From positions 1 to 41,991 of the forward strand of contig CALFPI010000042.1 in assembly GCA_937919035.1 (NCBI GenBank): a stretch of DNA of 41,991 nucleotides, in the 5' to 3' direction. This document shows positions 1,546 to 17,417 of the stretch, one piece after another (the first letter of the stretch is position 1; the number at the start of each line of letters is the position of its first letter). Position numbers and translations under genes: made by a program. The notes beneath the pieces were generated by a model. That model did no database searches. It was given only the letters and a program-made list of their open reading frames with translations, and was not told where the DNA came from. The DNA comes from an uncultured Gemmatimonadaceae bacterium. Its GTDB lineage: Bacteria > Latescibacterota > UBA2968 > UBA8231.

Positions 1546-3120
1546 CTACGGTATCCCGATTTCGTAGATCGAGATCGGGGCGTCAATGCCCTTGACCGAG
1601 ATCTCATCGATGTGGCTGACGTCGCCAATGTGAGGGGCTTTGGCGAGTCGCTCATTGCAGATGATCCGGCCGGGCTGCGCATGGTTCTTGGCGATCCGGA
1701 AGAACTGGTTGACGCCATCGCCGATCACCGTGTAATCAGTCTGAGTATCTTCCGAGCCCAACTCACCGACGATCGCATCGACAAGGCCGAGGGTTACTTT
1801 GACCTCGAATGCCGCTTCATGGCTCTTGCTCAATTCATTCACAGCGGCGAGGATCTCACGAGCACATGCCACGGAAGTTTCGGCTGCCTTGACATCCTTG
1901 ATCGGCGCTCCGAAGAGCGCCATCACCTCATCGCCGATGAACTTGTCGAGGGTTCCGCCGTAACCATCCTTGATGATCTTCCCGATGAGTGCCAGATAGC
2001 AATTGATTGCAGCGAAAACTTTGAGGGGGTCTTCCTGTGCATGAGCGTATTTGGTTGAACCAACGAGATCTGCCGACAGGATCACGACCTCTTCCCGTCG
2101 TGGATCAAGCCATTTGGGCTGGTTGAGCAGTACATCAATCGCGCCGGTCCCGACGTGTTTCGTGAACCGGGAGACCATCACCCGGATGTGTCTCTCCTTG
2201 ATCAGGGCCGTGTCCAAAAGCTCACCGGCCGACTGTACAAGATCAACGTGAGCCGGCGTGTAGCGGCTGTCTGAAACGAGTACGATGACGCCCCCTTTCT
2301 CACCCGCTCTGGTGGTCAAGGGGACTGCGATGACGCCAGCAATTTCGTCACCCCCTACACGGATTGGGCCATCCCGTGGCCCCCGTGACACAGGCGTGTC
2401 CTTGTGATCGCAATCTTGCGCAGCTTCCACGATCTCAAGTCTCGCCTGGTCATAGTTCTCGAGGATGATGCCCCCGGTGCTGTCCGTTGCCTGGAGGGCG
2501 TAGTCTTCTTCCTCGCCATGAAAGACGAAGCCTGCCATACTCGCCGTATCCTCGACCAACCGGTGAATCGAGAGTTCCAGGCAGCGTTGGGTGTTGTTGC
2601 CATGCGTATCGACGATGCCATCGATCTCACGGACCAACGTCCTTTCCCGCCTGGCGACATCCTCCTTGCACTTTGAGTAGATCACGGAGTCGAGAACATA
2701 GCTCGCCTCGCTGAGCAGAAACGGAAAGCAGCCATCTGGGGCACCGGACTGGATTCCTATGATCCCCAGATATGTTTCCCCTTTGTAGAGTCCTTTTACC
2801 AGGTAGGGAGCCTCGAAGAGACTCACCACTTTGGCTTCGTCCGTCACGCCCTCGCGTTCCGTTGCGCGGCACATCTGGGCGATCTCTTCGTTCATCGTTC
2901 GCCGCAGCAGCCCGTTCCTGTCTACGGCGACGACGGTGTCCTTGCCGAAGAAATCGCGGTAGCCGATAAACGCAGTTTCGCACGCGAATTCGCGAACCAG
3001 CCCCCTGAGGCACTGACGCAGAATGTCATAGAGATTCTCGTGCTCGTCGGCGCTGTCGTCCATCATGTGGACGATACGAAGCGCGTGAGCCAACGTGTCA
3101 CGATCGGGGACTGGGTTCAT
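1546..3120 (-). CDS. Soluble class III adenylate/guanylate cyclase with N-terminal GAF-like domain(s); ATP-type specificity residues
   Basis: Metal-binding Asp in ILSADLVGST and KFIGDEVMALFGAP; substrate-specifying Lys (DKF) and Asp (DYTVIGD); catalytic N and R in VNQFFR; VKG motif near the C-terminus. GAF-like signature VIAVPLTT..GVIVL upstream. No TM segments. AAGGA precedes ATG 3120. Confidence 0.87.
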   Translation of the reverse strand: MNPVPDRDTLAHALRIVHMMDDSADEHENLYDILRQCLRGLVREFACETAFIGYRDFFGKDTVVAVDRNGLLRRTMNEEIAQMCRATEREGVTDEAKVVSLFEAPYLVKGLYKGETYLGIIGIQSGAPDGCFPFLLSEASYVLDSVIYSKCKEDVARRERTLVREIDGIVDTHGNNTQRCLELSIHRLVEDTASMAGFVFHGEEEDYALQATDSTGGIILENYDQARLEIVEAAQDCDHKDTPVSRGPRDGPIRVGGDEIAGVIAVPLTTRAGEKGGVIVLVSDSRYTPAHVDLVQSAGELLDTALIKERHIRVMVSRFTKHVGTGAIDVLLNQPKWLDPRREEVVILSADLVGSTKYAHAQEDPLKVFAAINCYLALIGKIIKDGYGGTLDKFIGDEVMALFGAPIKDVKAAETSVACAREILAAVNELSKSHEAAFEVKVTLGLVDAIVGELGSEDTQTDYTVIGDGVNQFFRIAKNHAQPGRIICNERLAKAPHIGDVSHIDEISVKGIDAPISIYEIGIP

Positions 3121-3130
3121 TCACGTTCCT

Positions 3131-3159
3131 TGGGCAGCCGATCTGGGCAGCCGATCTGG
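3131..3159. repeat. Perfect 13-bp tandem duplication (TGGGCAGCCGATC x2 + TGG)
   Basis: Read directly: 3131-3143 is identical to 3144-3156. It fills most of the 39-bp gap between the channel stop and the cyclase start. Confidence 0.9.
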
Positions 3160-5310
3160 TCAGTAGAATACGGTCTGCGTGATAATCAGCAGGGCTCCGA
3201 GGATGATGGGCCAGAACGCCATCTTGGTGATCAGATTGTCGCGAAAGTCCAGCATTCTCAGACCCTGAACGCGGGTGAACAGGATCGAGTTGATCGACAC
3301 GCCAAGGAGCATCATGTAGATCACGAAGTAGAAATAGTCCAGGTAGATGATTTCGGACACCTGCAGCGAGTCGCGGACCTCGATCTGAGCGATGATGACG
3401 ACGAAAAAGAACGCTGCGCAGACTTCGAGAACGCCAAAGCCGCTGAATCCCAGCAACTCACCCGCCTGTTTGCTGGAGGTCATGACAACGGTAAATACCA
3501 GGATGGTGACCACGATGAGGGGCACGATGGTGGTGATGAACGGACTCAGAAACTCACGCTGAATGGTAAGGTTGAAATAGAGTTCCGGGCGGGTCTCGGC
3601 GACGCTCTGCTGACGCACACCAAAATTCGTGTTGTAGTGGTTGAAGCGATAGTCGAAGTAACTGCCTTTCAGCGACCAGTTCGGCATCACCAGGTGCTCC
3701 TCGAGTCCCGGCAGAAACTCAGGATTGAGGATCTCGTAGGAGGCAACATCCGGTACGAGGATCACGGGCCGGTTGAAGTCCGTGTGCCACATGCGCAGCC
3801 ACACCGTCTGCTGATCGAAGGGGTAGTGTCGATAGTCGAATTCTTCCCGCACGGAAACGCGGAAGTACCAGCCCACGACCTGGCGATCGCCGAGATCGAC
3901 GCGGTAGGCCTCCTGTATGTCGAGAACTTCGGCGTTGGGCTCGGTCTCGGCGAAGATCACGCCCTCAGATACGGGCGTGCCATCGGCATAGGTCCGATTG
4001 CTCTTGTCGTAGACCTGCCAGATATAACCACTGAGCATGACGTTGTAGGCGTCGCTGTATTGCATGTGCTGGATGAAGACGCCCGTGGGCACGTACACGA
4101 CCTCTTCCTTCATCTGGGCGGCGCGGACGCTCAATTGCTCCATGAATTGCGTGAGAACGGCCTGACTCTCGATGCGTAGCACCTCGTTTTCTCCGGCGTG
4201 CTGTGGTGGCCGGTTGAGAGCGCGCTGCCAGACGAACCAGATCCCGCCGAGAAAAACCAGGGCCGTGACGATGGACACGACCCAGTAACTCCGCTCTCCG
4301 CCCCGGAAGAATTGCGTCGCCGTCAGCATGGCCAGGATGACGAGGGAGCAACCCCCAAGCAGGATCCACACGAGGCGACGACTCTCGAGCTGGTACCCCT
4401 GGGAGTCTTTCGAATCAAGGTAATAGAGTAGAACCGTCCAGCCGCTGCTTGGGACCGACGCGTGGAACACCCGGTCCTGCCGTCCGGAGGCATCGGTGAC
4501 CTCCACCCAGCCCGGCTCGCCACCTTGGATACGCTCCCGCGCGGCCACGGCCACGGTGTGACGCAGTCTGCCATCCTCGGCCAATTTCTTCAGATCCTGA
4601 AGCAGGTTCGCCTGGTTGAGCACCTTTTCGGCGACCGGGTGTGAGATATAGGTGTGCTGCCTGGACGTGATGTAGCCGAAACCCTCTTCCCCTTCTGGCA
4701 GCGAAGAAGAGATGATCTGCTTCAGTTCGACCGGGGAGAGATTGATGGCAACGATCCCCATGGGGGCGCCTTCTGCGTCAAAGAAGGGCACACCATACTG
4801 AATGATGACGGCACCGCTCTCGTTACCAAAGAACGGTTCCGCCCAACCAGCGCCTTTGGCGACAGTGTTGTAGTACCAGGGGTTTATCGTGTAGTCGTAC
4901 TCGAGAAACACAAGTTTGTGACCGGCGTCGCCCCGATTGAGAAACAGGGGCGCGAAGTATTGGTGATCGTCGGTGAAACGATGCGGCTCGTAGGCCACAA
5001 AGAGCCCGTCGATGTAGTCCAGTCGCTTGACGTCCGCGCGCAAGCGATCCATCAAGGCCGTCGAGTCGAGCCGCCCCTGACTCAGATCCTCGGCGATCGC
5101 GTCGGCGATGGCCATCAACCCGCCCAATCGGGCATCGATGTCCTGGGAGAATTTCCCGCTCTCAGCCTGGTGCTTGTTGATCGCCTCGGTCTGGCGCTCA
5201 CGGCTTCTGTTGATGTGCTGATAGGAATAGTACCCGAGCCACACCAGATTGGCCAAGGCCAGGATTGCGAGGGTGAAGAATCCCCTGGTGAATCGGTCCC
5301 TTACGTGCAT
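3160..5310 (-). CDS. dCache-domain-fused pentameric ligand-gated ion channel (Pro-loop receptor) subunit
   Basis: N-terminal TM, then a dCache-like region (YDYTINPWYY..GWAEPFF..YGVPFF..GIVAINL..GYITSRQHTYISHP..SGWTV), two more TMs, and a beta-rich ectodomain with the pLGIC Pro-loop FDYRHYPFDQQ (YPFD at 3825-3814). Pre-M1 IQRE with the M1 Pro (TTIVPL), and four C-terminal TMs. Start set at ATG 5310 (GGAG upstream), overlapping the stop of the previous gene. Confidence 0.8.
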   Translation of the reverse strand: MHVRDRFTRGFFTLAILALANLVWLGYYSYQHINRSRERQTEAINKHQAESGKFSQDIDARLGGLMAIADAIAEDLSQGRLDSTALMDRLRADVKRLDYIDGLFVAYEPHRFTDDHQYFAPLFLNRGDAGHKLVFLEYDYTINPWYYNTVAKGAGWAEPFFGNESGAVIIQYGVPFFDAEGAPMGIVAINLSPVELKQIISSSLPEGEEGFGYITSRQHTYISHPVAEKVLNQANLLQDLKKLAEDGRLRHTVAVAARERIQGGEPGWVEVTDASGRQDRVFHASVPSSGWTVLLYYLDSKDSQGYQLESRRLVWILLGGCSLVILAMLTATQFFRGGERSYWVVSIVTALVFLGGIWFVWQRALNRPPQHAGENEVLRIESQAVLTQFMEQLSVRAAQMKEEVVYVPTGVFIQHMQYSDAYNVMLSGYIWQVYDKSNRTYADGTPVSEGVIFAETEPNAEVLDIQEAYRVDLGDRQVVGWYFRVSVREEFDYRHYPFDQQTVWLRMWHTDFNRPVILVPDVASYEILNPEFLPGLEEHLVMPNWSLKGSYFDYRFNHYNTNFGVRQQSVAETRPELYFNLTIQREFLSPFITTIVPLIVVTILVFTVVMTSSKQAGELLGFSGFGVLEVCAAFFFVVIIAQIEVRDSLQVSEIIYLDYFYFVIYMMLLGVSINSILFTRVQGLRMLDFRDNLITKMAFWPIILGALLIITQTVFY

Positions 5311-8300
5311 TCTTTCAACTCCAGTAGTGTGCCGTCCACGGCCTGCTTCAAGTTGGCCGCCGCCTCCGGATGTTCCACAAGGAAGCCCGTCATTACGTCT
5401 CGACCCAGACACAGCAGCCGTGCGGGACTCGCAGCTACGATGGCGAGCGTCGCCTCGCCGCTGCTGCCCCAGACCATCTCTCCCAGGAGCGAGCCCGCCT
5501 CATCGACCCGCGCCTGCTCTCCGATCGTTACCGTGCCATCCACCAGAAGATAGACGAATTGTACCCGCTCCCCGACCTGCAGAAGGCTGGCGCCTGGCGA
5601 CAGCCTGACTTCACGACACAGCAGGGCCAGATCCACCAGGCTTCCCTCGTCGACGCGCGCCAGAAGGGGCGCCGCTTTCAACGCCGCGATCTTGCCGGCG
5701 ATGGAGAGTGCGCCCTCGCCGGCGGCCTGCAAAATGTGAAAGGTTTCGTCGCGCATGGGTTCGGGCAGCAGTTCTAGCGCTTGGGTAGAGGCGACGGGAT
5801 CCGCCCGCTGCATGCCGAGGGCGGCTGCCTCGCGCAGCATGGGATTGGGATGGTACAGCTGAGCAATCTGCTCGTCGCAGATTCGACCATCCAGCAGGTT
5901 TGCGAGCGCTTCGAGGGCACACACCCGGCCCCATGGACCGATGGCGGAGTATTCGGCCAAGACAACGTTCTTGAGACGGTCCACCGGTTTCAGGCGCCTT
6001 TGGGGGCAGCGGGGCTCCAGCCGCTTGAGACGTTGATTCAGGGTGAGATCTTCCAGCAAGGGAAAGATCAACTCTCTGGTGTTTGCATCGAGCAGAGCGT
6101 CGAGCAACTCCAGAGCATAGACGCGACCATCGGGATCGCCGCTGCGAAAGCTGTCTCGTACCAGTTCCACCTGTGGGGCCTCGTAGATTAACGTCAGCAA
6201 CAGGAAAATGCGTTCGCGTCGTTGATCGACGTCGGCACCCAGGGCCTTGAGCACGGCCTGTGTGCCATCGGTTTCCGACAGGTCGAGGATCGAGGCCATA
6301 CTCCACGCCGCCCGCGATGTCGTCTCCTCGATGCGCTGCCGGACATACGCCTGCTCTTCGCCACTGGCGGCCTGATAGCCATTGGCCCGCAATCCACCCA
6401 GGACTGCCAGTTCCACGCCTGCATCCACTGCGTTCATCCGTGGTGCCAGTAGGTCGATGGCCCCCTGGCCCCCGATGGCTGCACACGAGCGGACCACACG
6501 CGCCTGCACGGCGGGGCCCGTCGCTGAGTCTGCGAGCAGCCCGAGCAGGATGGGGAAGGAGGCGACGCCTTGTGCCAGCAGGACTTCGGCGGCAACCCAG
6601 TGCGTATCCGGCGCCTTCAACTGCTCCGCCATGACGCCGAGCAAGTGCTCCGAGTTGACGCGACCTGCAGCGAGCAGGGCAAAACGACGCACGCCCGCAT
6701 CTTCGTCCCGCAGAAGTTCCTTGAGCAACTGTTGCTCTTCGACCGCCAAGCCGTCTGCCCCGGCCCCTGTCCCCAACAATCGCGCCGCGAGGGAGCGGTC
6801 GTTTGTGTCGCGGGAACCAGCCAGAATTGCAACACCACGGCCTGGCCTCTCGAACATCGCTGTCTCGAGCCGTGCCAGCGTCTGCCGACCGGCCTGCTTC
6901 AGCTCAGGATCGGACACCCCATCGAGGCAGCGTCGCGTCTCCCCCTCCAGTTCCGTCCACCGCAGGCTACCTATGACACGCAGAGCAGCCAGCCGTGCCG
7001 CCGGCGCGGGATTGGCGAGGTAAGCCTTGAGCGCCGTACCAAGAGAGGCCGGCGCTGCCCGCGTGAGCCAGTCGAGGGCGGCCCCGACGCGGCCAGGATC
7101 GACGACGCGCAGATCAGCCTGAAGTAGAGCGACGCCCTGCGATGGTCGTACGTCCGTATCCCCGGATGCGCCCCGCGTCCGTGCTGTCAGACTGCCAAGC
7201 AGCGAGGCGCGATACTCCCGATGGAGGAGGACGGCGACGGCTGCCCAGGTACTGGCGATCAGAAACACGGCGACGAGCACCACCTCGGAGGATCCGAGCC
7301 AGCTGATCGGCCAGAGGATGAGACCCACGAAGGCCACTGCCTTCTGCTGCACGAGCCCCTCTATGCTGGTCTGAACCGCGAGTCGATCCTCAGCGGCGAG
7401 GGGTTGGTAGAGGACGTTGAAGGATGGGTCGTGAAAGGACTTCATGGCGACGCGTTCGATGATCTTGCTGAGCACGACGAGCAGAAATATGGCCTGGCTG
7501 CTGTCGGCAAGACTCAGGTCCGCCAACGCCACCAGGACCATGATCACGCAGAGCATCAGGGGCAGAGCCAACAGGCCGAGACGAATGCCGTACTCCTGCA
7601 GCAGGCGGCCGGATAGGACTGTCTTTACCAGAAGCTCCACGACACGGATGGTGCCGTACAGTGAACTGATGAAGCGCGCCAGGAAGGTGCGGTCCTCGAA
7701 GCGTATGCGCAGTTGCCCCAGGAAGGCGTAGTCGATGAAGTAAAAGCCGAAAACGACCAGAACCGCCAGCAGGCAGATGAGTCTCAGGTAGGGGTCGCTG
7801 AGCAAGTCCCGCAGGCCGACCTGGCGTCGCGCCTGGGACGGACTGGAGACAAGCCGCTGGGCGAAGGTCCGGTTGACGACGCACAGCAGCCAGCAGGCTC
7901 CCCCCAGAGCGGCAGCGGCAATCAACAGCAGATCGGTGACCCGCGGCAGCACGCCGACCACGAGCGGCACCGAGAAGAAACCGATGATCGAAGAGATGAC
8001 GTCCCCAGAACTGATCAGGCCGAAGAGACGCTTGCTCTGCTGCAGGTCGAGGAGGCGGCCGACGAGTGTCCGGAAAACGAAATAGACAAGGGCGATGAAG
8101 GGGCCTATGAAGGCGAACATGGCGAAGGTGAGCCAGCGCGCCGGGAGCATCAGGAAACCGAGCCAGAACAGAACCACCAGGACCAGGGGCAAGGCCAGGA
8201 CGCGAATGATGAGACTGGTGAAAGGAATTCGGCCCTGCATCCGCGCCAGCCAGGCGCCGATGAGATACCCAGCCAGTCCGGTGGCCATGTAGCCCTGCGG

Positions 8301-8459: not shown

Positions 8460-8464
8460 GGACG

Positions 8465-11113: not shown

Positions 11114-14100
11114 CGCGGACCGCCTTGATCGGGACCCGGAAGATCGGGCCGGATTTTTTCGTATGGGATGCCTTCACCGACGAATCGCTCCCACTCTCTC
11201 ATCGTCAGGTTGCGGACCACGCAGGGCAGCAGTGCTTCGGCAAGATCGGTGGTTTGCGTCGTCCACAGGTGGACGTTCCGATCCATCCCGCCGGAGGCGA
11301 TCCGCCGCCCATCGGAATTGATGGCGACGGACCACACCCAGTTGTCATGCCCCAACAGGACGGGCTCCTGCTCCGGCGCCTGCACATTCCACAGGCGCAC
11401 CGTTCCGTCAAGGCTGGCCGTCGTCAACAGCCGGCTGTCGGGAGCGAAGACGAGCGAGCGAACAGCTGATTGATGGCCAATCAGCACCTGGGGGGCAGCA
11501 GACAGGTCCTTCCGATCCCACAGCAGCAGATCACCGTTGGCCGCCCCCGCCACCAGCCAGCGGCCATCGGCGCTGAAGGCGAGGGAGCGAATCGCGGCCT
11601 GATAGGGGGAAGGACTCGGAGAAACCGGCGTGCCGTCGGGCCGCCACAAACGAATCGCACCATCCTGGCTGCCGGTAGCCAACAAGCCGTCATCGGCAGC
11701 GATCGCCACAGCGTCGACGCTGCTGCCCAGTCGCCAATTTGCCAGGGACGTCGCCGTATCCCCCTGCAGGTGCCAGCAGCTGATGCGACCGTCGAGCCAG
11801 GACGCGACGAGCTGATCCCCGGTGGCTGAGAAGTTGATCGATGTCACGGGGACCGGGGACGGATCGCCGGACGCCGTCACCAGTACGGGTGCGGAGTCCG
11901 AGTCGAGTCGAGCCAATTCCACGCGGCCCTGGTCGGTGCCCGTCGCCAACAGTCCGTCGGCACGGATCGCCAGGCTGCGCACAGCACCTTGTCGCCGCCA
12001 TACCGACGTCGCTTTGCCCAGCTGCAGATCCCAGGCTCGAATCGCTCCGTCGTCGCCGCCGGAGAGCAATTGGTCGCTGTCGGGCCGGAAGGCGACGGCA
12101 CGCACGGCGTCATCATGGCCGCGCAGGACTCGTCGGGAATCACTCTCGAAAGGCATGAGGGCAAGGCGTAACGCCTGGTGGATGTCGGGGTCCTGCGTGA
12201 TTGCGCTGTGTCTGTCATGGAGAAGGTACGCTTCCATGGCGAGCAATGCGGCGAGTTGGTCCTGGCCTTCGCGATCATGGATCTTGACCGCCTGGATGGC
12301 GAGGGTACGACTCACCGAAAGCAAGTGCAGTCGATTCGCCTGGCGCCGATGTTCCACCGCGATCTGGCGCTGCGCTTCAGCGCGCTCGCGTTCCTGGTCG
12401 GCGAGTTCCTGTTGCTCTTCGGCAATCTGGCGCTGTGCCTCTGCGCGCTCACGTTCCTGGTTGGCGAACTTCCTCTGCTCTTCGGCGAGCAGCCGCTGGC
12501 TGTCGGCGCGCTGGCGCTCCTCCACGGCCACTTCCTGCTGCTGCTGAGCCAGCAGTCGCTGCTCCTGCGCCCGTTCTCTTTCGGCCTCCGCCGCCTGTTT
12601 CTGCTCAACGGCGAGTTGTCGCTGAGTCTCGGCCTCCTTGCGCTCCTCGTCGGCCAGCTCCCGCTGGCTGAATGCATCCTTCTTGGATTCTTCGGCTTTG
12701 AAATAGAGATTCATTCCGATCACGAGGCCGGTGAGGAAGATGAGGGAAACACCGCCCATCAACAGCGCCAGCCGGCGGGTCCGCCGCAGGCGCCTCTGGC
12801 GCCGTTCCTCTTCCTTGGCGAGGCGAAAATCGCGCTCCTCCACGCTGTGATCGAGGAAGGTCATGGCACGCTCAAAAGCCGGGTCATGCCGACGCCCCCA
12901 GGCCGCCGTCGGACGATACTGCCGACGCCATTCCAGAGCCAGCTCGAGATCAGGATCCTGGTAGAGGCCCGCTCTGCCTTCCTGGTAGAGGGCGGCAGTA
13001 TTGGCGATGCGGGTATACAAGTGCGCGGATTGGGTCTCCTCCTCCATCCAGCTTCGTGCTCGCGGCCACTGACGAAGCAGACTCTCGTGGGGTATGTCGA
13101 GCACGGTGCCGCCCTGCAAGGGCACCTCGGGCGATGGCATGACAAACCACCGTCCCGCCATTCTGAAGTGCTCCACCACCGCCTTGACCGGGTCTGGCTC
13201 CAGCCCGGCTATCGCAGCAATCTCGTCGAGGTCTGTAGGTCGCCGGCCATCACGAAAGATGCCTGCCCCCCCGGCCAGTGATCTGAACAGGAGCCGGGCG
13301 ATCCGGCGGGACTCGTCGTCCGCCAATTCCGCATAGACTTCTTCGGCGTGCTGGGAGAGTGCCTCGGAGACCGTGCCGACAGCCTCGTAGTGATCGATGT
13401 CGAGGGGTTCGCCTCGCTGGTGGTTGGCAGCCCAGTAGTCCCAGGTCCGCATCAGCACGTGTTGCAGGAGGGGCAACCGGTCGGCGTCATCGCAGATGTC
13501 GGCCAACAGTCGTTCCACGAGTTGAGGGCTGATCGCCGACCCCCCCAGGACGGCGGGTTCTTCGATCGCCGCACGCAACTGGTCGCGCGTCATGCGCGGC
13601 ACGAGGTAGTCGACTTCGTTGATCGCTTCGGTCAGGCCGTCGAGGGCTGTGCAGTGGCCGATGAACTCGGCGCGCATGGTGAGGACCACGTAGATCGGGG
13701 CCTCCCGTTGACGCATGGCTGTCAGCAACGCGTCGACGAACCGTGCCGCCTCAGCCGCATCTGCCTCGTCCTTTCCCTGCAGCCGGAAGAGTTCTTCGAA
13801 CTGGTCGACGACGAGCAGCAGATTCGGCGTCCCCGCTCCGGCCTTGACCAGATCGGCGATCCCGGACGTGCCGGCACGCAGGCCTTCCACATCCCCGTTG
13901 CCTACGCCTGCATCTTTCAACGCCGCACCCAGGCTGTCGAACACCCGCTTTCCGGGGGTGAAGATGACGCGTTGCCAAGTGCTGCCGGCGGCGGCGAGGC
14001 GACCTTGGTAGAGGCAGGGGACCAGGCCGGCTCGCACCAGTGACGACTTGCCACTGCCGGAGGGGCCCAGGACCACGAGGAAGCGTTTCGCTTCCAGCAC

Positions 14101-14214
14101 TTCCAGCAGCTGGTCCACCTGCTCCTGGCGACCGAAGAACAGGTGATGCTGCTCGAAGTCGAAGGGACGCAGCCCGGGAAAGGGGTTCACGGGCGCTGTC
14201 TCCATGGGGATCAT
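11110..14214 (-). CDS. nSTAND1-type NTPase - TM - long coiled coil - 7-bladed WD40 protein
   Basis: NPFPGLRPF..FFGR start; Walker A GPSGSGKSS; Walker B LLVVDQFEELF; LPLLQHVL and HESLLRQW motifs. TM LALLMGGVSLIFLTGLVIGMNLYF after a basic RRQRRLRRTRR stretch; ~120 aa A/E/Q/R heptad region; seven WD40 repeats. Confidence 0.9.
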   Translation of the reverse strand: MIPMETAPVNPFPGLRPFDFEQHHLFFGRQEQVDQLLEVLEAKRFLVVLGPSGSGKSSLVRAGLVPCLYQGRLAAAGSTWQRVIFTPGKRVFDSLGAALKDAGVGNGDVEGLRAGTSGIADLVKAGAGTPNLLLVVDQFEELFRLQGKDEADAAEAARFVDALLTAMRQREAPIYVVLTMRAEFIGHCTALDGLTEAINEVDYLVPRMTRDQLRAAIEEPAVLGGSAISPQLVERLLADICDDADRLPLLQHVLMRTWDYWAANHQRGEPLDIDHYEAVGTVSEALSQHAEEVYAELADDESRRIARLLFRSLAGGAGIFRDGRRPTDLDEIAAIAGLEPDPVKAVVEHFRMAGRWFVMPSPEVPLQGGTVLDIPHESLLRQWPRARSWMEEETQSAHLYTRIANTAALYQEGRAGLYQDPDLELALEWRRQYRPTAAWGRRHDPAFERAMTFLDHSVEERDFRLAKEEERRQRRLRRTRRLALLMGGVSLIFLTGLVIGMNLYFKAEESKKDAFSQRELADEERKEAETQRQLAVEQKQAAEAERERAQEQRLLAQQQQEVAVEERQRADSQRLLAEEQRKFANQERERAEAQRQIAEEQQELADQERERAEAQRQIAVEHRRQANRLHLLSVSRTLAIQAVKIHDREGQDQLAALLAMEAYLLHDRHSAITQDPDIHQALRLALMPFESDSRRVLRGHDDAVRAVAFRPDSDQLLSGGDDGAIRAWDLQLGKATSVWRRQGAVRSLAIRADGLLATGTDQGRVELARLDSDSAPVLVTASGDPSPVPVTSINFSATGDQLVASWLDGRISCWHLQGDTATSLANWRLGSSVDAVAIAADDGLLATGSQDGAIRLWRPDGTPVSPSPSPYQAAIRSLAFSADGRWLVAGAANGDLLLWDRKDLSAAPQVLIGHQSAVRSLVFAPDSRLLTTASLDGTVRLWNVQAPEQEPVLLGHDNWVWSVAINSDGRRIASGGMDRNVHLWTTQTTDLAEALLPCVVRNLTMREWERFVGEGIPYEKIRPDLPGPDQGGPR
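12362..12487. repeat. Degenerate 63-bp (21-aa) tandem repeat within the coiled coil of the STAND-WD40 gene
   Basis: Units begin ATCTGGCGCTG at 12362 and 12425. They encode AEEQRKFANQERERAEAQRQI / AEEQQELADQERERAEAQRQI on the minus strand, with more degenerate units toward ~12700. Confidence 0.8.
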
Positions 14215-15836
14215 TCGTCTGACACGAAGCCGCCGAGCTCCATCTTGAGGACCCGGTCGGCATGATGGAAGTAACGGTCATCGTGGGAGACGGCGACGAC
14301 CGTTTTGCCGTTGCTCTTCAATTCGCCCAGCAGGTGCTCGTAGAAGTAGCTCCTGAACTCCGGATCCTGCTCGGCGGCCCACTCGTCGAACAGATAGATC
14401 TGCTTGTCTTCCATGAGGGCCACGGCGAGAGCCATCCTCTTGCGCTGGCCCGTCGACAGCTCCAGAGAAGTAAAGCACTCGTCGACGAAGGTGGTCTTAT
14501 TGCTCAGTTGCATGTGCCCGAGCAACTCGTTGACTGTCTCCGGCTGGACATGGCGCAGGCCATAGAGCTTCCTGAAGAGGTGGAAGTCGGAGAATATGAT
14601 GGAGAACATTTCCCTGTAGGCGTCGATGGCATTGTCGTCCACAGCCAGATCGTCGATCTTTATCGTGCCTTGTTGTGGCCGATACAAGGTGGACAGGACC
14701 TTGAGAAGAGTCGACTTCCCGCTGCCGTTGCCGCCGACGATGAACAGCACCTCGCCGGCATTGATCTCGAAGGAGAGCGGCCCGATTTTGAACTGCTCAC
14801 CCCCACTCTTGTTCTGGTAGGCGAATTCGATACCGGTCACGGTGATCTTGGAGAACGAGTCGATCCGCGAGACCGTATCTGGCGAGTCCACTCGCCGGAA
14901 TTCGTCCAGCCTCTGCTCCAGGTCGGATATGTGCTCAGCGGCAATATTCGCTTTGAAGTAGACTGGAATGGATGACACGACCACGCCCAGCGGCCCGATG
15001 ATGAAGACGATCGCCATCGTGACCTCGGTGATGGTGTCCACGTAGGTGGGAACCAGTTGCGGCAACAGGAAGACGATCGCAGCCAGATGGGAGTAGAAGA
15101 ACACCTGTGACAGGATGTAGTTGCTGTTGTAGAGCCGGGCGGTGTGCACCTTAGATTCTCTGACCTCGCCCGAGATTTCTACAGTGGCGGCATATAGATC
15201 ATCACTCCGCTGCCGGTTCAGTCTGACCTCCTGAAAGCCCTCGATCAGGTGGGTCACGTGTTCGTACAGCTCGATTTCCTTCAGCGAGGCACGTTCGATT
15301 TCGCTCTTGGCAAGCTTGTCAGCGCGCATATAGATCGCGACGCCGCCGATCATCAGCAGGAGCGTGAGGGCGAAGGCGTATTTGGACAGAGAGATGACGT
15401 AGAGCGAGATGAAAATCACCATGGCCAGAGACTGGATGGCTGCGGTGAGATAGCCCTCCATGGCCGACAGGACCGCCGTATCTTGCGTCAGGCGGTTATA
15501 GATCTGGGCTCGACCAATCTGATCCAGTACGGTCAGTTCGGACTTCCTGATTTTGTCCGAGATGCGCCGGCGGGTTGCGTCGAGGAGGGCCTCGAACGTG
15601 CGCGTGGTGCAGTCGAAGGTATAGCGGAGACAGTAGGCGTATGTGGCCATCGCGATGCCAAACATGACCAGGTAGCGAAAATTGAGATTGCCGTATTCGG
15701 CAGATCGCGAGGCGGCGTTGATGACGGCGAGGATGGCGGTGCTGGCGAGGCCCGACATCACTGCAGTGAACACGACGTTGCGCCGAAGCTGGGGCGTCGT
15801 TTCCCGCAGTAAGAGGTTGATCAATTTTGAATCCAT
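14211..15836 (-). CDS. Cyclic-peptide export ABC transporter, fused permease-ATPase (SyrD/PvdE/YojI family)
   Basis: About six TM helices, then Walker A GGNGSGKST, family motif IFSDFHLF, signature LSTGQRKRMAL, and family-typical LFDEWAAEQDPEFR and VSHDDRYF. Confidence 0.93.
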   Translation of the reverse strand: MDSKLINLLLRETTPQLRRNVVFTAVMSGLASTAILAVINAASRSAEYGNLNFRYLVMFGIAMATYAYCLRYTFDCTTRTFEALLDATRRRISDKIRKSELTVLDQIGRAQIYNRLTQDTAVLSAMEGYLTAAIQSLAMVIFISLYVISLSKYAFALTLLLMIGGVAIYMRADKLAKSEIERASLKEIELYEHVTHLIEGFQEVRLNRQRSDDLYAATVEISGEVRESKVHTARLYNSNYILSQVFFYSHLAAIVFLLPQLVPTYVDTITEVTMAIVFIIGPLGVVVSSIPVYFKANIAAEHISDLEQRLDEFRRVDSPDTVSRIDSFSKITVTGIEFAYQNKSGGEQFKIGPLSFEINAGEVLFIVGGNGSGKSTLLKVLSTLYRPQQGTIKIDDLAVDDNAIDAYREMFSIIFSDFHLFRKLYGLRHVQPETVNELLGHMQLSNKTTFVDECFTSLELSTGQRKRMALAVALMEDKQIYLFDEWAAEQDPEFRSYFYEHLLGELKSNGKTVVAVSHDDRYFHHADRVLKMELGGFVSDE

Positions 15837-15924
15837 AGCACCCGGATTGGACGGACATTCCTCCTGAATGGGGTAGAACCAGCTGAGCGGCGCCCTCTCT
15901 ACCCGAGCCTCACAACGCTGGCCT

Positions 15925-17385
15925 TCATTCCTTGGGTGTTCCGGCGCTGGTTGTGTCTGTCATGGCAGCCTGGCTGCCACCGTCCGTCACCATGGGTTTG
16001 GGAAAGTCCCACCCCTGATTGCCCAGAATGACAGGCAACCCGTCTTTGCCAGCGCCAATAATGACCATCTTCGCGTTCGGTGACCTTGCCAGTTCCAGAG
16101 TTGCCTCGATGGCCTTCCACTTGAGCAGACCTTCTTCGATCCCCGCAGCGACCATGTCCTGAAAATCTCTGATCCCTTTGCCTTCGATGAGCTTGCGTTC
16201 AGCCTCTTTTCTTTCGCGGTCGAGCCTGAAGTCGAACTCCTGAGCGACTTGCTCCTGCTCCAACTTCGACTGGATCGCCTCCTTGATCCTGTCGGGAAGC
16301 TCGATAACGCTGATCAGCACATCCTTCAGTTCGACGATCGAGAAGTAGGTGTCGTACGCCTCCTTCAGTTTTTCGAAATACTTATCGCCCTCTCTGAATT
16401 CCTTGTTCAGTTCGACCTTGCCGAAGTAGAGATCGGCATGGACCTTGTTCAGACTGTCAAGGCCCGCCGAATAGAATCCTGTCTGCGCCAAATCCCGCTT
16501 GGCCCCGGCCATCGAAATGTCCCGCTTGAGCGCCTCTATTTCATCGGCCACCCGATCGAGGTCCCGATTCATGTAGAGCATCGCCGCTTCGTAGTTTGAC
16601 TCTCCCTTGATGAACCGCTCGAACAGATGGATGAATCCGACGTTCCTGACGCTATTGGTCAGGGCTGTATCCGCGTCAGCTTCATCGTACAGGTATTTGA
16701 GCATCATCCGCACATTCGGGGTGTCGTCGCTGGGGTTGGCGACCTCTCCGTTGTAAAGCATGTCTGCGGTTGGTTCGGGCCAAAACCGTGTTTGGAAACT
16801 GTCGAACTGACGTAACTCGTGCTGCAGGTCCCGCTCAATCTCGTCCTCGATCAAGTTTCTCGACGTCGAGTACAGCTCCGAAGGCGTGCTCGTGCCAAGG
16901 ATATGGCGCGATGACGATTCGACTTCGGGAGCCAGGAACGTCTGTACGTAATTCGGCCCGTGCTCTTTGTGCAGGGTCCCCAACAGCCTCGACTTGGGCT
17001 GAAAACGCACCGTCACCGTCACTCTGATATTGAGCCCATCGGCTGTCAGTGCGTCCATCTCGACCGGAAAAACCTGCTCCCTCAGGTTGTATGGCGTTAC
17101 CGTGTCCCAGGGAAAGAAAATCCTGAGACCTTCCTGAAAGGCGCGGTCGACGTCTGTGCCACCCAGCATCCGGCGGAACACGACGGCTTCTTGGCCGGCG
17201 GGTATGGTGATGAAGATTCGGGGTGCCAGATAGGCCAGCATGAAAAGCACAAACAGAATCGAAATGACGATCCGGGGTGCTTTCTCGTCCAAGGACCGCT
17301 TGAATCTGGCCAGCATTGCTCCCAAATCTCTCGATGAATGGCGCAGGCCGAGCCCTGGTTCTGGGACATTCCCCAGGGGCAGCAT
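15925..17385 (-). CDS. Prohibitin/SPFH (band 7) family membrane protein with a large internal insertion
   Basis: N-terminal TM, then ITIPAGQEAVVF, EGLRIFFPW, LTADGLNIRV, DVLISVIELP..EAIQSK..EQ and EAERKLIEGKGI..LKWKAIEATLELARSPNAK. Alternative start ATG 17316. Confidence 0.87.
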   Translation of the reverse strand: MLPLGNVPEPGLGLRHSSRDLGAMLARFKRSLDEKAPRIVISILFVLFMLAYLAPRIFITIPAGQEAVVFRRMLGGTDVDRAFQEGLRIFFPWDTVTPYNLREQVFPVEMDALTADGLNIRVTVTVRFQPKSRLLGTLHKEHGPNYVQTFLAPEVESSSRHILGTSTPSELYSTSRNLIEDEIERDLQHELRQFDSFQTRFWPEPTADMLYNGEVANPSDDTPNVRMMLKYLYDEADADTALTNSVRNVGFIHLFERFIKGESNYEAAMLYMNRDLDRVADEIEALKRDISMAGAKRDLAQTGFYSAGLDSLNKVHADLYFGKVELNKEFREGDKYFEKLKEAYDTYFSIVELKDVLISVIELPDRIKEAIQSKLEQEQVAQEFDFRLDRERKEAERKLIEGKGIRDFQDMVAAGIEEGLLKWKAIEATLELARSPNAKMVIIGAGKDGLPVILGNQGWDFPKPMVTDGGSQAAMTDTTSAGTPKE

Positions 17386-17417
17386 CGCCTACAGGTGCTG
17401 TCGCGCGACAGAAGTGT

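What the first reader, a model, noticed from the sequence alone, without database searches (positions are those of the whole stretch)
1546..17385. Candidate undescribed system: a lipopeptide-linked trans-envelope signalling operon (exporter, STAND-WD40, TonB receptor, transporter-HEAT-cNMP, Cache-pLGIC, adenylate cyclase, SPFH)
Seen: seven co-oriented genes, five of them tightly packed (ATGA overlaps at 14211-14214 and 11110-11113, a 5-bp gap at 8460-8464, a 10-bp overlap at 5301-5310), transcribed back-to-back with the FAAL/PKS/NRPS operon. Established: SyrD/PvdE exporters move acylated NRPS peptides, and TonB receptors with N-terminal extensions (FecA, FpvA) signal across the envelope. Inference: the product is exported, received at the outer membrane and sensed in the periplasm by WD40/Cache domains. 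Output would go through a STAND ATPase, an ion channel and cAMP instead of the usual ECF sigma/anti-sigma pair, possibly organised by the SPFH scaffold. I do not recognise this combination from any characterised cluster, but I cannot search to confirm it is new.
Basis: partly seen in the sequence, partly recalled or inferred. Interest (0 to 1): 0.88.

Follow-up and report, generated by a model that had tools for sequence, protein, structure and literature searches.

The report
Envelope-spanning STAND sensor module beside lipopeptide cluster
Seven co-oriented genes sit beside a lipopeptide gene cluster, but only three or four recur together in other bacteria, as an apparently undescribed sensor that seems to link an outer-membrane receptor to an ATPase switch inside the cell.

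Summary
All seven minus-strand genes, their domain calls and the four tight junctions are as described.

The seven genes are not one conserved cassette. The recurring core is:
- a membrane-anchored nSTAND1 NTPase with a helical stalk and WD40 propeller predicted to be periplasmic;
- directly downstream, an outer-membrane protein with a previously unannotated TPR-like N-terminal domain (here a TonB-dependent receptor, elsewhere a small beta-barrel);
- an NTT/MFS-HEAT-cNBD membrane protein.

This core occurs in 6 of 168 Latescibacterota genomes, in many metagenome contigs and on a plasmid of cultured Runella rosea.

The Cache-pLGIC gene, confirmed as a pLGIC by fold, joins the core in only 3 Latescibacterota genomes. 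Close homologues of the SPFH gene and the FAAL were found in 0 of 5 module-bearing relatives. The cyclase gave only catalytic-domain-level hits away from the module. The ABC exporter was found in 1 of 5, on another contig.

NRPS/PKS genes flank the module in the window. In one relative, the contig holding the STAND N-terminal half opens with a PCP-thioesterase end and a PPTase. They flank 0 of 30 metagenomic modules. The exporter is a SyrD/PvdE-type cyclic-peptide exporter and most likely serves the biosynthetic cluster.

Verdict: an apparently undescribed trans-envelope STAND module is real. Its link to the lipopeptide is unproven.

The parts
15925..17385 (-). SPFH/Band_7 membrane protein (486 aa, one N-terminal TM segment). 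It is the first gene of the co-oriented block and is not conserved with the module.
   Evidence: Pfam Band_7 84.4 bits against a cut-off of 23.6. TM at residues 39-57. No homologue at E<=1e-10 in 0 of 5 module-bearing relatives. It forms a singleton cluster among 630 neighbourhood proteins.
14211..15836 (-). SyrD/PvdE-type cyclic-peptide ABC exporter (fused permease and ATPase). It most likely serves the FAAL-PKS-NRPS cluster.
   Evidence: NCBIfam TIGR01194 329.2 bits against 286.2. Its stop overlaps the STAND start as ATGA. An orthologue was found in 1 of 5 module-bearing relatives, on a separate contig. In many other loci a TIR/DUF4062 gene occupies this position.
11110..14214 (-). Core 1: nSTAND1 NTPase (residues 1-~480, cytoplasmic), one TM helix (residues 482-500, DNA 12715-12771), a ~129-residue charged helical stalk, and a helical linker plus WD40 propeller (residues ~630-1034, DNA 11113-12327) predicted to be periplasmic.
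   Evidence: Pfam nSTAND1 E 1.4e-98 and WD40 E 1.7e-45. Walker A GPSGSGKSS and DQFEE are invariant in alignment A2. TM position, the positive-inside charge pattern and stalk lengths were measured in 29 relatives. The gene is conserved next to an outer-membrane partner.
8465..11113 (-). Core 2: TonB-dependent receptor (Plug plus barrel) with a signal peptide and a module-specific TPR-like N-terminal domain (residues 28-121, DNA 10751-11032) carrying two conserved Cys.
   Evidence: Pfam Plug and TonB_dep_Rec_b-barrel. No Pfam family matches the first 129 residues at E<=0.1. An HMM of this domain hits 11 receptors and 24 small barrels, and nothing else among 630 proteins. The AF2 model has pLDDT 94.1 and five helices. 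The best Foldseek matches are TPR domains, and they are weak. A profile search found 3232 cluster representatives.
5301..8459 (-). Core 3: NTT/MFS-like transporter domain (residues ~1-440), HEAT repeats and a divergent C-terminal cNMP-binding-like domain (the NTT-HEAT-cNBD family).
   Evidence: Pfam HEAT_2, cNMP_binding at 23.1-24.5 bits (below the 27.5 cut-off), and weak MFS_1. The G136 orthologue matches TLC. ESM Atlas clusters are named TLC/HEAT/cNMP. The family is described in PMC5381601. It was found in 19 of 30 WD40-type STAND loci and 0 of 50 other loci.
3160..5310 (-). Lineage-specific add-on: a dCache sensor fused to a pentameric ligand-gated ion channel subunit (7 TM segments). The Cache domain and the channel's ligand-binding domain are both predicted to be periplasmic.
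   Evidence: Pfam dCache_1. TM map. The AF2 model of the C-terminal 346 residues has pLDDT 87.2 and pTM 0.82. Foldseek top hits are GLIC, ELIC and DeCLIC at E 1e-13 and TM 0.62-0.76. It is adjacent to the module in G136 and G013 only. This fusion type is described in PMC549065.
1546..3120 (-). GAF-like N-terminus plus a class III nucleotidyl cyclase. It is the last gene of the block and is not conserved with the module.
   Evidence: Pfam Guanylate_cyc 31.6 bits against 21.9. GAF_2 at E 4e-5, below cut-off. PADLOC PycC models at E 1.3e-16. Relatives show only catalytic-domain matches at 29-33% identity, on other contigs. In G136 the gene downstream of Cache-pLGIC is a family-B DNA polymerase.
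3134..3159 (-). A 13-bp tandem duplication in the spacer between Cache-pLGIC and the cyclase. It is polymorphic in environmental DNA.
   Evidence: Read directly from the sequence. Contigs of DNA runs X1 and X2 lack 13 bases here (table 4).
17386..17578 (.). Divergent intergenic region between the SPFH gene and the FAAL gene, with one sigma-70-like match (TTGACA, 18 nt, CACAAT) at 17447-17418 on the minus strand.
   Evidence: The number of promoter-like sites in 1-18000 (4) equals the shuffled mean (4.0), so this is a lead only.
17579..41989 (+). Divergent biosynthetic cluster: FAAL-ACP (to 19756), PKS with KS-AT-MT-KR-ACP-KS... (19722-29243), PKS with KS-KR-ACP (30087-33854), and NRPS with C-A-PCP-C-A... 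(33851-41989, running off the contig).
   Evidence: Pfam domains. The FAAL start was read.

Best explanation
The block is a composite.

The core is genes 11110-14214, 8465-11113 and 5301-8459, with 3160-5310 as a Latescibacterota add-on. It is a conserved envelope-spanning STAND module.

Proposed mechanism:
1. An outer-membrane protein carries a small TPR-like domain on its periplasmic N-terminus. Here that protein is a TonB-dependent receptor. In most other bacteria it is a ~350-aa beta-barrel.
2. The gene just upstream encodes an nSTAND1 NTPase anchored in the inner membrane by one helix. A ~120-residue helical stalk, about 18 nm if alpha-helical, holds a WD40 propeller out in the periplasm.
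3. I infer that the state of the outer-membrane protein (ligand, phage or bacteriocin engagement) is read by the propeller through the TPR-like domain.
4. I infer that this signal passes through the single helix and switches or oligomerises the cytoplasmic NTPase.
5. I infer that the NTPase then acts on cytoplasmic partners. The always-linked NTT-HEAT-cNBD membrane protein would be contacted through its HEAT/cNBD arm. Variable outputs encoded nearby are TIR+DUF4062 NADase-like proteins, PP2C/STAS partner-switching parts or sensor kinases. In Latescibacterota the add-on is a Cache-gated pentameric ion channel.

Shown: the gene linkage, the domain folds, the predicted topology and the shared N-domain. 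Inferred: the contact, the direction of signalling and the outputs.

The ABC exporter is the biosynthetic cluster's SyrD/PvdE-type product exporter. In this genome it has landed in front of the STAND gene and is translationally coupled to it.

The SPFH gene and the GAF-cyclase are lineage-specific neighbours. Whether the module's biological role is signalling or defence is open. I lean slightly to signalling for the receptor-type layout.
For: Conservation in the phylum:
- A receptor orthologue at E<=1e-60 occurs in 6 of 168 genomes, G000 included.
- STAND lies directly upstream of the receptor in all 6.
- NTT-HEAT-cNBD is adjacent in 5 of the 5 where the contig continues. The order is the same as the window in G136, G055 and G116, and rearranged in G013.

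Conservation beyond the phylum (80 metagenome loci):

| Feature | WD40-type STAND loci | other nSTAND1 loci |
|---|---|---|
| Outer-membrane partner | 26 of 30 (25 of 27 with >=600 bp visible downstream) | 1 of 50 |
| NTT-HEAT-cNBD | 19 of 30 | 0 of 50 |

- L056 adds a receptor match by tblastn.
- Of the 8 partner-bearing loci without NTT-HEAT-cNBD, 7 have less than 2.2 kb visible upstream.

Shared N-domain:
- An HMM built from 11 receptor N-termini hits all 24 small-barrel partners at their N-termini and nothing else among 630 proteins.
- The fold has pLDDT 94.1 and resembles TPR domains.
- Cys residues are conserved in 27 and 30 of 34 sequences.
- The family has 3232 cluster representatives.

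Topology:
- 29 of 29 partnered STANDs have one TM helix at residues ~481-519.
- Mean K/R count is 6.1 in the 15 residues before the helix and 2.5 in the 15 after.
- Stalk length is 82-147 residues, median 119.

Other support:
- Partner type follows the NTPase tree. A quick tree needs 5 label changes against a shuffled mean of 24.9, and 22 of 23 small-barrel cases form one clade.
- The same layout occurs on a plasmid of a cultured organism, Runella rosea.
- The exporter matches TIGR01194 above its cut-off.
- Close homologues of the non-core genes (SPFH, FAAL, full-length cyclase) were not found in module-bearing relatives; the exporter was found in 1 of 5, on another contig.
- Short contigs from two RNA libraries of one study match the Cache-pLGIC, NTT-HEAT, receptor, STAND, ABC, SPFH, FAAL and PKS genes at >=95% (15 of 17 pieces at >=99%). 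One bridges the SPFH/ABC gap. This is a weak hint of expression, because DNA carry-over is not excluded.
Against: - No direct evidence exists for a propeller-to-TPR contact or for any output.
- The window's version lacks the TIR/DUF4062 gene that precedes STAND in 13 of 30 WD40-type loci. No such gene was found anywhere in the 87%-complete genome, so its output is unclear.
- The cNMP-binding match is below Pfam's cut-off. By my own reading from recall, the phosphate-binding arginine is not evident in any family member.
- The ATGA overlap of exporter and STAND argues for real co-expression and so for some integration with the biosynthetic cluster.
- In G134 the contig holding the STAND N-terminal half shows PCP-TE, two unknown genes and a PPTase directly upstream of it. 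This contig was joined to the STAND-C/receptor contig only by an overlap in the stalk.
- All relatives' contigs break inside the STAND stalk, so the upstream context is visible in only 3 Latescibacterota genomes.
- My ORF calling in the loci was a simple greedy caller.
- Metagenome contigs are unnamed, and related contigs are not independent.
- The window's STAND sits on a long, unplaced branch.
Confidence: 0.55

Rival explanations
1. All seven genes form one lipopeptide-linked circuit. The FAAL-PKS-NRPS product is exported by the ABC pump, recaptured by the TonB-dependent receptor and sensed by the WD40 and Cache domains. The signal is passed on through STAND, the ion channel and cAMP, and the SPFH protein scaffolds the assembly.
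For: - The seven genes are co-oriented and tightly packed, with ATGA coupling of exporter to STAND.
- They are divergent from the biosynthetic cluster across a 193-bp spacer.
- No intergenic terminator-like site was found.
- RNA-library contigs touch six of the seven genes and the cluster.
- G134 shows PCP-TE and a PPTase directly upstream of the STAND N-terminal half.
- G013 has a different SPFH-family gene (FloA, with NfeD) upstream of STAND.
- The cyclase and a cNMP-binding-like domain occur in the same block.
Against: - SPFH was found in 0 of 5 module-bearing relatives, FAAL in 0 of 5 and the exporter in 1 of 5 on another contig. No full-length cyclase orthologue was found.
- In G136 the gene after Cache-pLGIC is a DNA polymerase.
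- NRPS/PKS genes flank 0 of 30 WD40-type metagenome loci.
- The receptor's orthologues in other phyla carry the same N-domain and always follow STAND without any biosynthetic cluster. The receptor therefore belongs to the module and not to the cluster.
- The cNBD scores below cut-off.
Confidence: 0.1
2. The module is an envelope-guarding, NLR-like defence system. The periplasmic propeller watches an outer-membrane protein that phages or bacteriocins use as a receptor. When triggered, the STAND NTPase oligomerises and activates NADase effectors (the TIR/DUF4062 protein) or membrane effectors (NTT-HEAT-cNBD, pLGIC), leading to growth arrest. The window carries a version without the NADase.
For: - A ~500-aa TIR_2+DUF4062 protein sits directly upstream of STAND in 13 of 30 WD40-type loci and 38 of 50 other nSTAND1 loci.
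- 2026 preprints report DUF4062 as a TIR-like NADase of anti-phage systems (abstracts; passages of one preprint).
- nSTAND1 was defined in predicted conflict systems (PMC8195603, passages).
- The distribution is patchy: 6 of 168 phylum genomes and 0 of 9 other genomes of the same genus.
- The module is plasmid-borne in Runella, and a serine recombinase lies beside it in G013.
- The cyclase matches Pycsar cyclase models.
Against: - PADLOC has no family for STAND beyond P-loop-level matches. It has none for the receptor, the NTT-HEAT protein, Cache-pLGIC or the TIR/DUF4062 protein.
- The receptor-type layout is surrounded by partner-switching and two-component parts: STAS, an RsbW-like protein, RR-PP2C, histidine kinases and Reg_prop/Y_Y_Y sensors. 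These look more like signalling than abortive infection.
- The window's genome has no TIR/DUF4062 gene.
- A large, strictly conserved transporter partner is unusual for known defence systems.
Confidence: 0.25
3. The receptor and the NTT-HEAT-cNBD protein are simply the two steps of an uptake route: the outer membrane, then the inner membrane. The substrate would be a nucleotide-like or siderophore-like compound, possibly the cluster's own lipopeptide. STAND-WD40 would be only a regulator or an unrelated neighbour.
For: - A TonB-dependent receptor plus an inner-membrane MFS/NTT-type transporter is the classical import pair (established knowledge, from recall).
- The NTT family carries nucleotides and NAD+ (PMC5381601, passages).
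- The receptor scores best, though below cut-off, against heme and siderophore receptor models.
- The exporter and biosynthetic cluster are adjacent.
Against: - In most loci the outer-membrane partner is a ~350-aa OMP_b-brl_2 barrel with the same N-domain and no Plug or 22-strand barrel. Active TonB-type import is therefore not the conserved feature.
- STAND is the most constant member, and the partner type follows its tree.
- The receptor reaches no NCBIfam subfamily cut-off.
Confidence: 0.1

Closest known systems
FecA/FecR/FecI and FpvA-type cell-surface signalling (TonB-dependent transducers)
   Same: A TonB-dependent receptor carries an extra periplasmic domain in front of the plug. The adjacent gene encodes a single-pass inner-membrane protein whose periplasmic part could reach that domain. 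The predicted logic is the same: an outer-membrane event leads to a cytoplasmic switch.
   Different: The extra domain is TPR-like and not the STN domain. No Pfam family matches the first 129 residues, and the fold resembles TPR. The partner is a STAND NTPase with a stalk and WD40 propeller, not a FecR-type anti-sigma factor. No ECF sigma factor is among the block's genes. The same N-domain is more often fused to a small barrel that cannot be a TonB transporter.
nSTAND1 / NLR-like STAND conflict systems (Kaur et al. 2020 and 2021; Avs-type defence proteins)
   Same: An nSTAND1 NTPase carries C-terminal WD40 repeats. In many relatives a TIR/DUF4062 (NADase-like) protein is encoded directly upstream. 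nSTAND1 is named in PMC8195603.
   Different: A TM helix places the sensor repeats in the periplasm. The module has a dedicated outer-membrane partner and an NTT-HEAT-cNBD partner. This genome has no effector domain. PADLOC has no model for the module. The passages I read of PMC7159879 mention neither TonB nor the outer membrane: both terms occur 0 times.
NTT-HEAT-cNBD fusion proteins (Major et al. 2017, PMC5381601)
   Same: The three-part architecture is the same. The family is widespread and uncharacterised.
   Different: The passages I read of that paper give no genomic partners. Here a subset of the family is tied to a membrane STAND NTPase and an outer-membrane protein. Other paralogues in Latescibacterota lack these neighbours.
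Prokaryotic pLGICs with N-terminal sensor domains (GLIC, ELIC, DeCLIC; MCP-N/Cache fusions of Tasneem et al. 2004, PMC549065)
   Same: The fold matches GLIC, ELIC and DeCLIC at E 1e-13. A Cache-type sensor is fused in front, as already predicted for Methanosarcina, Cytophaga and Microbulbifer. The closest homologue clusters include Methanosarcinaceae.
   Different: The sequence is too divergent for Pfam's pLGIC models. Two extra TM helices link the Cache domain to the channel. Operon linkage to a STAND module is seen in only 3 Latescibacterota genomes.
SyrD/PvdE cyclic-peptide ABC exporters (TIGR01194)
   Same: The protein matches the model over its full length and above cut-off, and it lies next to an NRPS/PKS cluster.
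   Different: It is translationally coupled to a STAND gene and not to a biosynthetic gene.
Pycsar (PycC cyclase plus a cNMP-binding membrane or TIR effector)
   Same: A class III cyclase that matches PycC models (E 1.3e-16) lies in one block with a membrane protein that ends in a cNMP-binding-like domain.
   Different: The cyclase is not conserved with the module. It has a GAF-like N-terminus. By my reading from recall it carries the Lys/Asp pair typical of adenylate cyclases. The cNBD is sub-threshold.
Tol-Pal / TonB trans-envelope couplers
   Same: An inner-membrane-anchored protein has a long helical periplasmic segment, as TolA and TonB do. A periplasmic beta-propeller, as in TolB, faces an outer-membrane protein. 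This is an analogy from recall.
   Different: No homology was tested or claimed. The cytoplasmic part here is an NTPase switch, not a proton-driven motor.

Membership tests
   Only STAND, the receptor and NTT-HEAT-cNBD recur together. Cache-pLGIC occurs in 3 genomes. In module-bearing relatives SPFH was found in 0 of 5, FAAL in 0 of 5 and ABC in 1 of 5 on another contig, and the cyclase gave domain-level matches only.
   NRPS/PKS matches lie within the fetched flanks of 0 of 30 WD40-type metagenome loci and 1 of 50 other nSTAND1 loci. There is none on the Runella stretch. Within Latescibacterota, NRPS/PKS parts are adjacent in 2 of the 3 genomes where the upstream side is visible.
nSTAND1 STAND NTPase (PF20703) | Match to the family model above cut-off, with intact Walker A and Walker B motifs | tested here: met
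   331.5 bits against a cut-off of 27.1. GPSGSGKSS and DQFEE are invariant in A2.
TonB-dependent receptor | Plug domain plus 22-strand barrel domain | tested here: met
   Plug 66.7 bits and barrel 109.3 bits, both above cut-off. No NCBIfam substrate subfamily reaches its cut-off.
TonB-dependent transducer (FecA/FpvA type) | N-terminal STN signalling domain, with an adjacent FecR-like anti-sigma factor and an ECF sigma factor | tested here: not met
   No Pfam family matches residues 1-129 at E<=0.1. The fold is TPR-like. None of the block's proteins matches a sigma or anti-sigma family.
Pentameric ligand-gated ion channel | Beta-sandwich ligand-binding domain followed by four TM helices, with a fold match to solved pLGICs | tested here: met
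   AF2 pLDDT 87.2. Foldseek hits GLIC, ELIC, DeCLIC and GABA-A at E 1e-13 and TM 0.6-0.76. A PDB profile search gave only nAChR chains at E 0.008-0.06. Pentamer formation and ion conduction are not testable here.
Cyclic nucleotide-binding domain (PF00027) | Family match above cut-off and a phosphate-binding cassette with its arginine | tested here: inconclusive
   23.1-24.5 bits against a cut-off of 27.5. The orthologue in L025 scores E 0.048. In my alignment of 25 C-termini, the Arg of the cassette is not evident. The motif was recalled, not taken from a tool.
Class III nucleotidyl cyclase | Family match above cut-off, with the catalytic metal-binding Asp pair, the substrate Lys/Asp pair, and the Asn and Arg | tested here: met
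   31.6 bits against 21.9. The residues were read by eye in the translation against motifs recalled from memory, so the catalytic-residue part is only a lead.
Cyclic peptide export ABC transporter (TIGR01194) | Full-length match above the curated cut-off | tested here: met
   329.2 bits against 286.2, covering residues 8-540 of 541.
Known anti-phage defence systems (PADLOC-DB v2) | Match of the module's proteins to any system model | tested here: not met
   Only P-loop-level matches to mad3 and mad8 (E ~1e-4) for STAND. Nothing for the receptor, NTT-HEAT, Cache-pLGIC, SPFH or a TIR/DUF4062 relative. The cyclase matches PycC.

The most novel reading that the evidence does not exclude
The core is a widespread, undescribed envelope-spanning NLR-like receptor. 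A periplasmic WD40 head on a ~18-nm stalk docks to a dedicated TPR-like domain of an outer-membrane protein. This converts an outer-membrane event into STAND NTPase switching, which controls a nucleotide-type (NTT) transporter and NADase or partner-switching outputs. In this Latescibacterota lineage the module has been wired to a lipopeptide exporter and a Cache-gated ion channel, so the cell would sense export or re-uptake of its own product.
Probability: 0.2. Interest if true: 0.85.

Novelty: new variant of a known kind. Interest (0 to 1): 0.64.

Why it matters
STAND/NLR-type NTPases are known mainly as cytoplasmic sensors, and TonB-dependent cell-surface signalling is known through the anti-sigma/ECF sigma route. 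This module suggests a third design, in which a STAND switch has its sensor propeller in the periplasm and is paired with an outer-membrane protein through a dedicated domain.

That domain defines a family of more than 3000 protein clusters with no annotation. The finding also gives a first genomic context to the widespread, uncharacterised NTT-HEAT-cNBD proteins. The presence of the module on a plasmid of a cultured Runella strain makes it testable.

For natural-product mining, the lesson is that only the exporter, and not the whole neighbouring block, should be counted as part of the lipopeptide cluster.

Tried and rejected
- **Complex prediction.** Complex prediction of the WD40 region (alignment A5) with the receptor N-domain (A4) gave no verdict, with scores of 0.18 and 0.14 against a mark of 0.32. 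I do not use it either way.
- **PADLOC scan.** Nothing useful for the core.
- **Composition.** Per-gene GC ranges from 0.56 to 0.655, but GC3 is 0.64-0.79 with no clear split between core and non-core genes. I dropped the idea of showing a mosaic by composition.
- **Promoter and terminator scan.** Counts equal the shuffled expectation. The one site upstream of SPFH is only a lead.
- **Homologue search with the STAND periplasmic half.** It was swamped by generic WD40 proteins. Only the first few full-coverage rows look orthologous.
- **Foldseek of the N-domain.** Weak TPR matches only (E 0.05-0.25).
- **Profile against PDB for the channel half.** Marginal (E 0.008). The fold search settled the question.
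- **RNA-library contigs.** No piece lay on the cyclase (bins 1634-3535).
- **Tree.** The careful tree did not finish in 300 s. Only the quick tree is reported.
- **STAND N-terminal halves** were not found in G136, G055 or G116. These genomes are 82-92% complete.
- **Supplements** of PMC7159879 and PMC5381601, which hold neighbourhood tables and trees, could not be seen. They may already list some of these neighbourhoods.
- **Second receptor copy.** I considered whether the copy on C666 marks a second module. Its contig ends at the gene's 5' end, and local tblastn at E<=1e-20 found no second STAND.

Full report
**What is there.** The window is the whole 41,991-bp contig C42 of a MAG (782 contigs, 87% complete). 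Named relatives place it in Candidatus Latescibacterota (record titles). DNA contigs at >=95% identity occur in seawater and aquatic metagenome runs of at least two studies.

Transcription would start near 17385 and run through these genes in order:
1. SPFH/Band_7 (15925-17385).
2. A TIGR01194 cyclic-peptide ABC exporter (14211-15836).
3. nSTAND1-WD40 (11110-14214).
4. A TonB-dependent receptor (8465-11113).
5. A transporter-HEAT-cNMP-like protein (5301-8459).
6. A Cache protein with seven hydrophobic segments (3160-5310).
7. A GAF-like class III cyclase (1546-3120).

A housekeeping-type FabF follows at 208-1467. On the other strand lie FAAL-ACP, two PKS proteins and an NRPS that runs off the contig.

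**The Cache protein is a Cache-pLGIC.** Pfam sees only dCache_1. A profile of the C-terminal 346 residues gave marginal hits to nicotinic receptor chains and little else. An AlphaFold2 model built on 32 homologues has pLDDT 87.2 and pTM 0.82 and shows a helix, a beta-sandwich and four TM helices. Foldseek's best matches are GLIC, ELIC, DeCLIC and GABA-A or glycine receptors at E about 1e-13 and TM 0.6-0.76.

The fusion of MCP-N/Cache sensors to prokaryotic pLGICs was predicted in 2004 (PMC549065, passages read). The family has 90 clusters in the large protein collection, some with and some without the Cache part, from Latescibacterota, Methanosarcinaceae, Streptomyces and others. This gene is therefore a new member of a known kind and is not specific to this locus.

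**Which genes travel together.** I searched 61 relatives with the transporter-HEAT protein and 168 genomes of the phylum with the receptor. Receptor orthologues at E<=1e-60 occur in 6 of 168 genomes, G000 included, and in 0 of 9 other genomes of the same genus.

In all six genomes the STAND-WD40 gene lies directly upstream of the receptor. The transporter-HEAT gene is adjacent in the five whose contig continues.

| Genome | Layout |
|---|---|
| G136 | STAND, receptor, transporter-HEAT and Cache-pLGIC in the window's order, then a family-B DNA polymerase |
| G013 | The same four genes, rearranged |
| G055 | The first three genes, then a beta-lactamase-family gene |
| G116 | The first three genes, then a Reg_prop/Y_Y_Y/TPR protein and a sulfatase |
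| G134 | STAND then receptor; contig ends |

Across the five relatives:
- The SPFH gene has no homologue at E<=1e-10 in 0 of 5.
- The FAAL has none at E<=1e-30 in 0 of 5.
- The exporter has one orthologue, in G013 at 48% identity, on a separate 5-kb contig.
- The cyclase gives only catalytic-domain matches of 29-33% identity on other contigs.
- Cache-pLGIC is present in G013 and G136 only, next to the module both times.

These MAGs are 82-92% complete, so "not found" is not "absent".

**The link to a biosynthetic cluster.** Every relative's contig breaks inside the STAND gene's stalk. In G013 the stalk contains perfect tandem repeats. The N-terminal halves were recovered for two genomes.

In G134 the half-gene is preceded by a PCP-thioesterase end, two unknown genes, a small ORF and an Sfp-type PPTase. 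In G013 it is preceded by a divergently oriented large serine recombinase, with FloA and NfeD beyond it.

NRPS/PKS parts therefore adjoin the module in 2 of the 3 Latescibacterota genomes where this side can be seen. The two clusters are not close orthologues. The best G000 match to the G134 thioesterase is 29% identical and lies on another contig.

Outside the phylum the link disappears. Among 80 metagenome loci fetched with the STAND N-terminus, NRPS/PKS matches occur in one locus. That locus has a different STAND C-terminus.

**A widespread module.** I called ORFs in 89 loci with a simple greedy caller and clustered 630 proteins. Thirty of the 80 metagenome loci have a STAND that aligns with the window's protein to its end.

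| Feature | WD40-type loci | other nSTAND1 loci |
|---|---|---|
| Downstream gene with the receptor's N-terminal domain | 26 of 30 (25 of 27 with >=600 bp visible) | 1 of 50 |
| Transporter-HEAT protein | 19 of 30 | 0 of 50 |

L056 adds a receptor match by tblastn. Of the eight partner-bearing loci without the transporter, seven show less than 2.2 kb upstream.

Two layouts exist:
- **Layout A:** STAND, then a TonB-dependent receptor, then the transporter. This is the window's layout. It also occurs in L056, L057, L061, L073, L074 and L091 where their contigs reach, and on a plasmid of cultured Runella rosea.
- **Layout B:** the transporter, an optional HAMP-PP2C, an optional TIR/DUF4062 protein, STAND, a ~350-aa OMP_b-brl_2 barrel, a ~430-aa unknown protein and a very large Ig/PKD-rich protein. 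This occurs in a Cyclobacteriaceae MAG, L037, and about 17 metagenome loci.

Neighbours of layout A include a histidine kinase, a response-regulator-PP2C, STAS and RsbW-like proteins, and Reg_prop/Y_Y_Y sensors.

**The shared outer-membrane domain.** The receptor's first ~120 residues match no Pfam family. An HMM built from the 11 receptor N-termini hits the N-termini of all 24 small barrels (E 1e-7 to 5e-19) and nothing else among the 630 proteins. In G000 it hits only the window's receptor and a second receptor on contig C666.

The domain folds with pLDDT 94.1 into five helices. Its best structural matches, though weak, are TPR domains. Two Cys are conserved in 27 and 30 of 34 sequences. A profile search of 1.84 billion representatives finds 3232 proteins at E<=1e-3 and 1654 at E<=1e-10. 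Most of the best 150 are about 340-390 residues long with the domain at residues ~20-125.

**Topology of STAND.** In 29 of 29 partnered STANDs there is one hydrophobic helix at residues ~481-519. The 15 residues before it hold on average 6.1 Lys/Arg and the 15 after it hold 2.5. This puts the NTPase inside the cell and the rest outside it.

Between the helix and the alignable C-terminal 405 residues lies a stalk of 82-147 residues (median 119) that is 60-81% E/K/R/Q/D/A. If helical, that is about 18 nm, close to the width of the periplasm (width from recall). On a quick tree of the NTPase domain, the partner type follows the tree: 5 label changes against a shuffled mean of 24.9, with 22 of 23 small-barrel cases in one clade (the careful tree did not finish).

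**The transporter partner.** The protein belongs to the NTT-HEAT-cNBD fusions described, but not characterised, by Major et al. (PMC5381601, passages read). ESM Atlas clusters carry the same three families.

Its cNMP-binding match is below Pfam's cut-off (23.1-24.5 against 27.5 bits). In my alignment of 25 C-termini I do not see the cassette arginine (motif from recall). The cyclase itself passes Pfam's cut-off and also matches Pycsar cyclase models.

**How it most likely works.** I read the core as a trans-envelope STAND module, and I separate what is shown from what is inferred.

Shown:
- The strict gene linkage.
- The shared N-domain on two kinds of outer-membrane protein.
- The predicted in-to-out topology and the stalk.
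- The intact NTPase motifs.

Inferred:
- The TPR-like domain contacts the propeller.
- Events at the outer-membrane protein switch the NTPase.
- The NTPase acts on the HEAT/cNBD arm of the transporter and on variable outputs.

In many relatives the variable output is a TIR_2+DUF4062 protein. 2026 preprints report DUF4062 as a TIR-like NADase of anti-phage systems (abstracts; passages of one). This keeps a defence role alive. The partner-switching and two-component neighbours of the receptor-type layout point more to signalling. The window's genome has no TIR/DUF4062 gene that my HMM can find, and its add-on is the Cache-pLGIC.

The exporter fits the biosynthetic cluster. Its ATGA coupling to STAND is the strongest remaining argument for local integration. 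Short contigs from two RNA libraries of one study match six of the seven genes and the cluster, and one bridges the SPFH/ABC gap. DNA carry-over cannot be excluded, and contigs cannot show a single transcript.

**Novelty and verdict.** The parts are known kinds: nSTAND1 NTPases, TonB-dependent receptors, NTT-HEAT-cNBD proteins, Cache-pLGICs and SyrD-type exporters.

I found no description of the following:
- The membrane-anchored, periplasm-facing nSTAND1-WD40.
- Its dedicated outer-membrane partner domain.
- Its linkage to NTT-HEAT-cNBD.

The searches were on nSTAND1 (6 papers), EACC1, DUF4062, STAND/periplasmic/WD40/TonB-dependent/NTPase, HEAT repeat/cNBD/nucleotide transporter/TLC and NTT-HEAT (3 papers). 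I also read passages of PMC7159879, PMC8195603, PMC10907252 and PMC5381601. Supplementary tables were closed and may hold relevant neighbourhoods.

I rate the core a new variant of a known kind.

Noticed in passing
window 3134-3159 (spacer 3121-3159): A 13-bp tandem duplication lies between the Cache-pLGIC stop and the cyclase start. Contigs of two environmental DNA runs (X1, X2) lack 13 bases here, so the spacer is polymorphic.
   Followed up: partly
G000:C666:5724-8438 (L047): A second TonB-dependent receptor, 51% identical and with the same TPR-like N-domain, is present in the same genome. Its contig ends at the gene's 5' end. The visible neighbours are a PAS-HK-receiver protein and a GH123-like protein, and no second STAND was found.
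   Followed up: partly
L053 (G013:C43) 2-1804; also L024, L025, L034, L045, L046: Every relative's contig breaks inside the STAND stalk. In G013 the stalk holds perfect ~21-residue tandem repeats, which probably cause the assembly breaks and hide the upstream context.
   Followed up: partly
L053 (G013:C43) 1893-7601: A large serine recombinase lies divergently next to the STAND start. Beyond it, FloA (flotillin-like SPFH family) and NfeD are co-oriented with STAND. This echoes the window's SPFH gene but involves a different SPFH subfamily.
   Followed up: no
L143 (Runella rosea plasmid NZ_CP030852.1, record 55783-72376): A cultured freshwater Bacteroidota strain carries the module on a plasmid, in this order: STAS, anti-sigma antagonist, RsbW-like protein, STAND, receptor with the N-domain, GNAT, NTT-HEAT 'MFS transporter' and a Reg_prop-type sensor kinase. 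This gives an experimental handle.
   Followed up: partly
window 29244-30086: A gap between the two PKS reading frames is covered by a 313-aa ORF (29215-30156) with no convincing Pfam domain. It could be a frameshift, a docking region or a small gene.
   Followed up: no
L037, L087, L092, L099, L068 downstream of the small barrel: In the small-barrel layout the module is followed by a ~430-aa unknown protein. One of these has a weak beta-propeller repeat match. After it comes a 1300-1950-aa protein with Big_5, Ig_7, fn3 or PKD domains.
   Followed up: partly
L052 (G134:C332) 1116-3438: Two genes without Pfam domains (330 and 408 aa) lie between a PCP-thioesterase and a PPTase, directly upstream of the STAND gene. 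The 408-aa protein has a 37%-identical relative on G000:C315.
   Followed up: no
window 208-1467: A FabF equivalog (TIGR03150, 576.9 bits) follows the cyclase on the same strand, 78 bp downstream. It looks like housekeeping fatty-acid synthesis and not part of either system.
   Followed up: no
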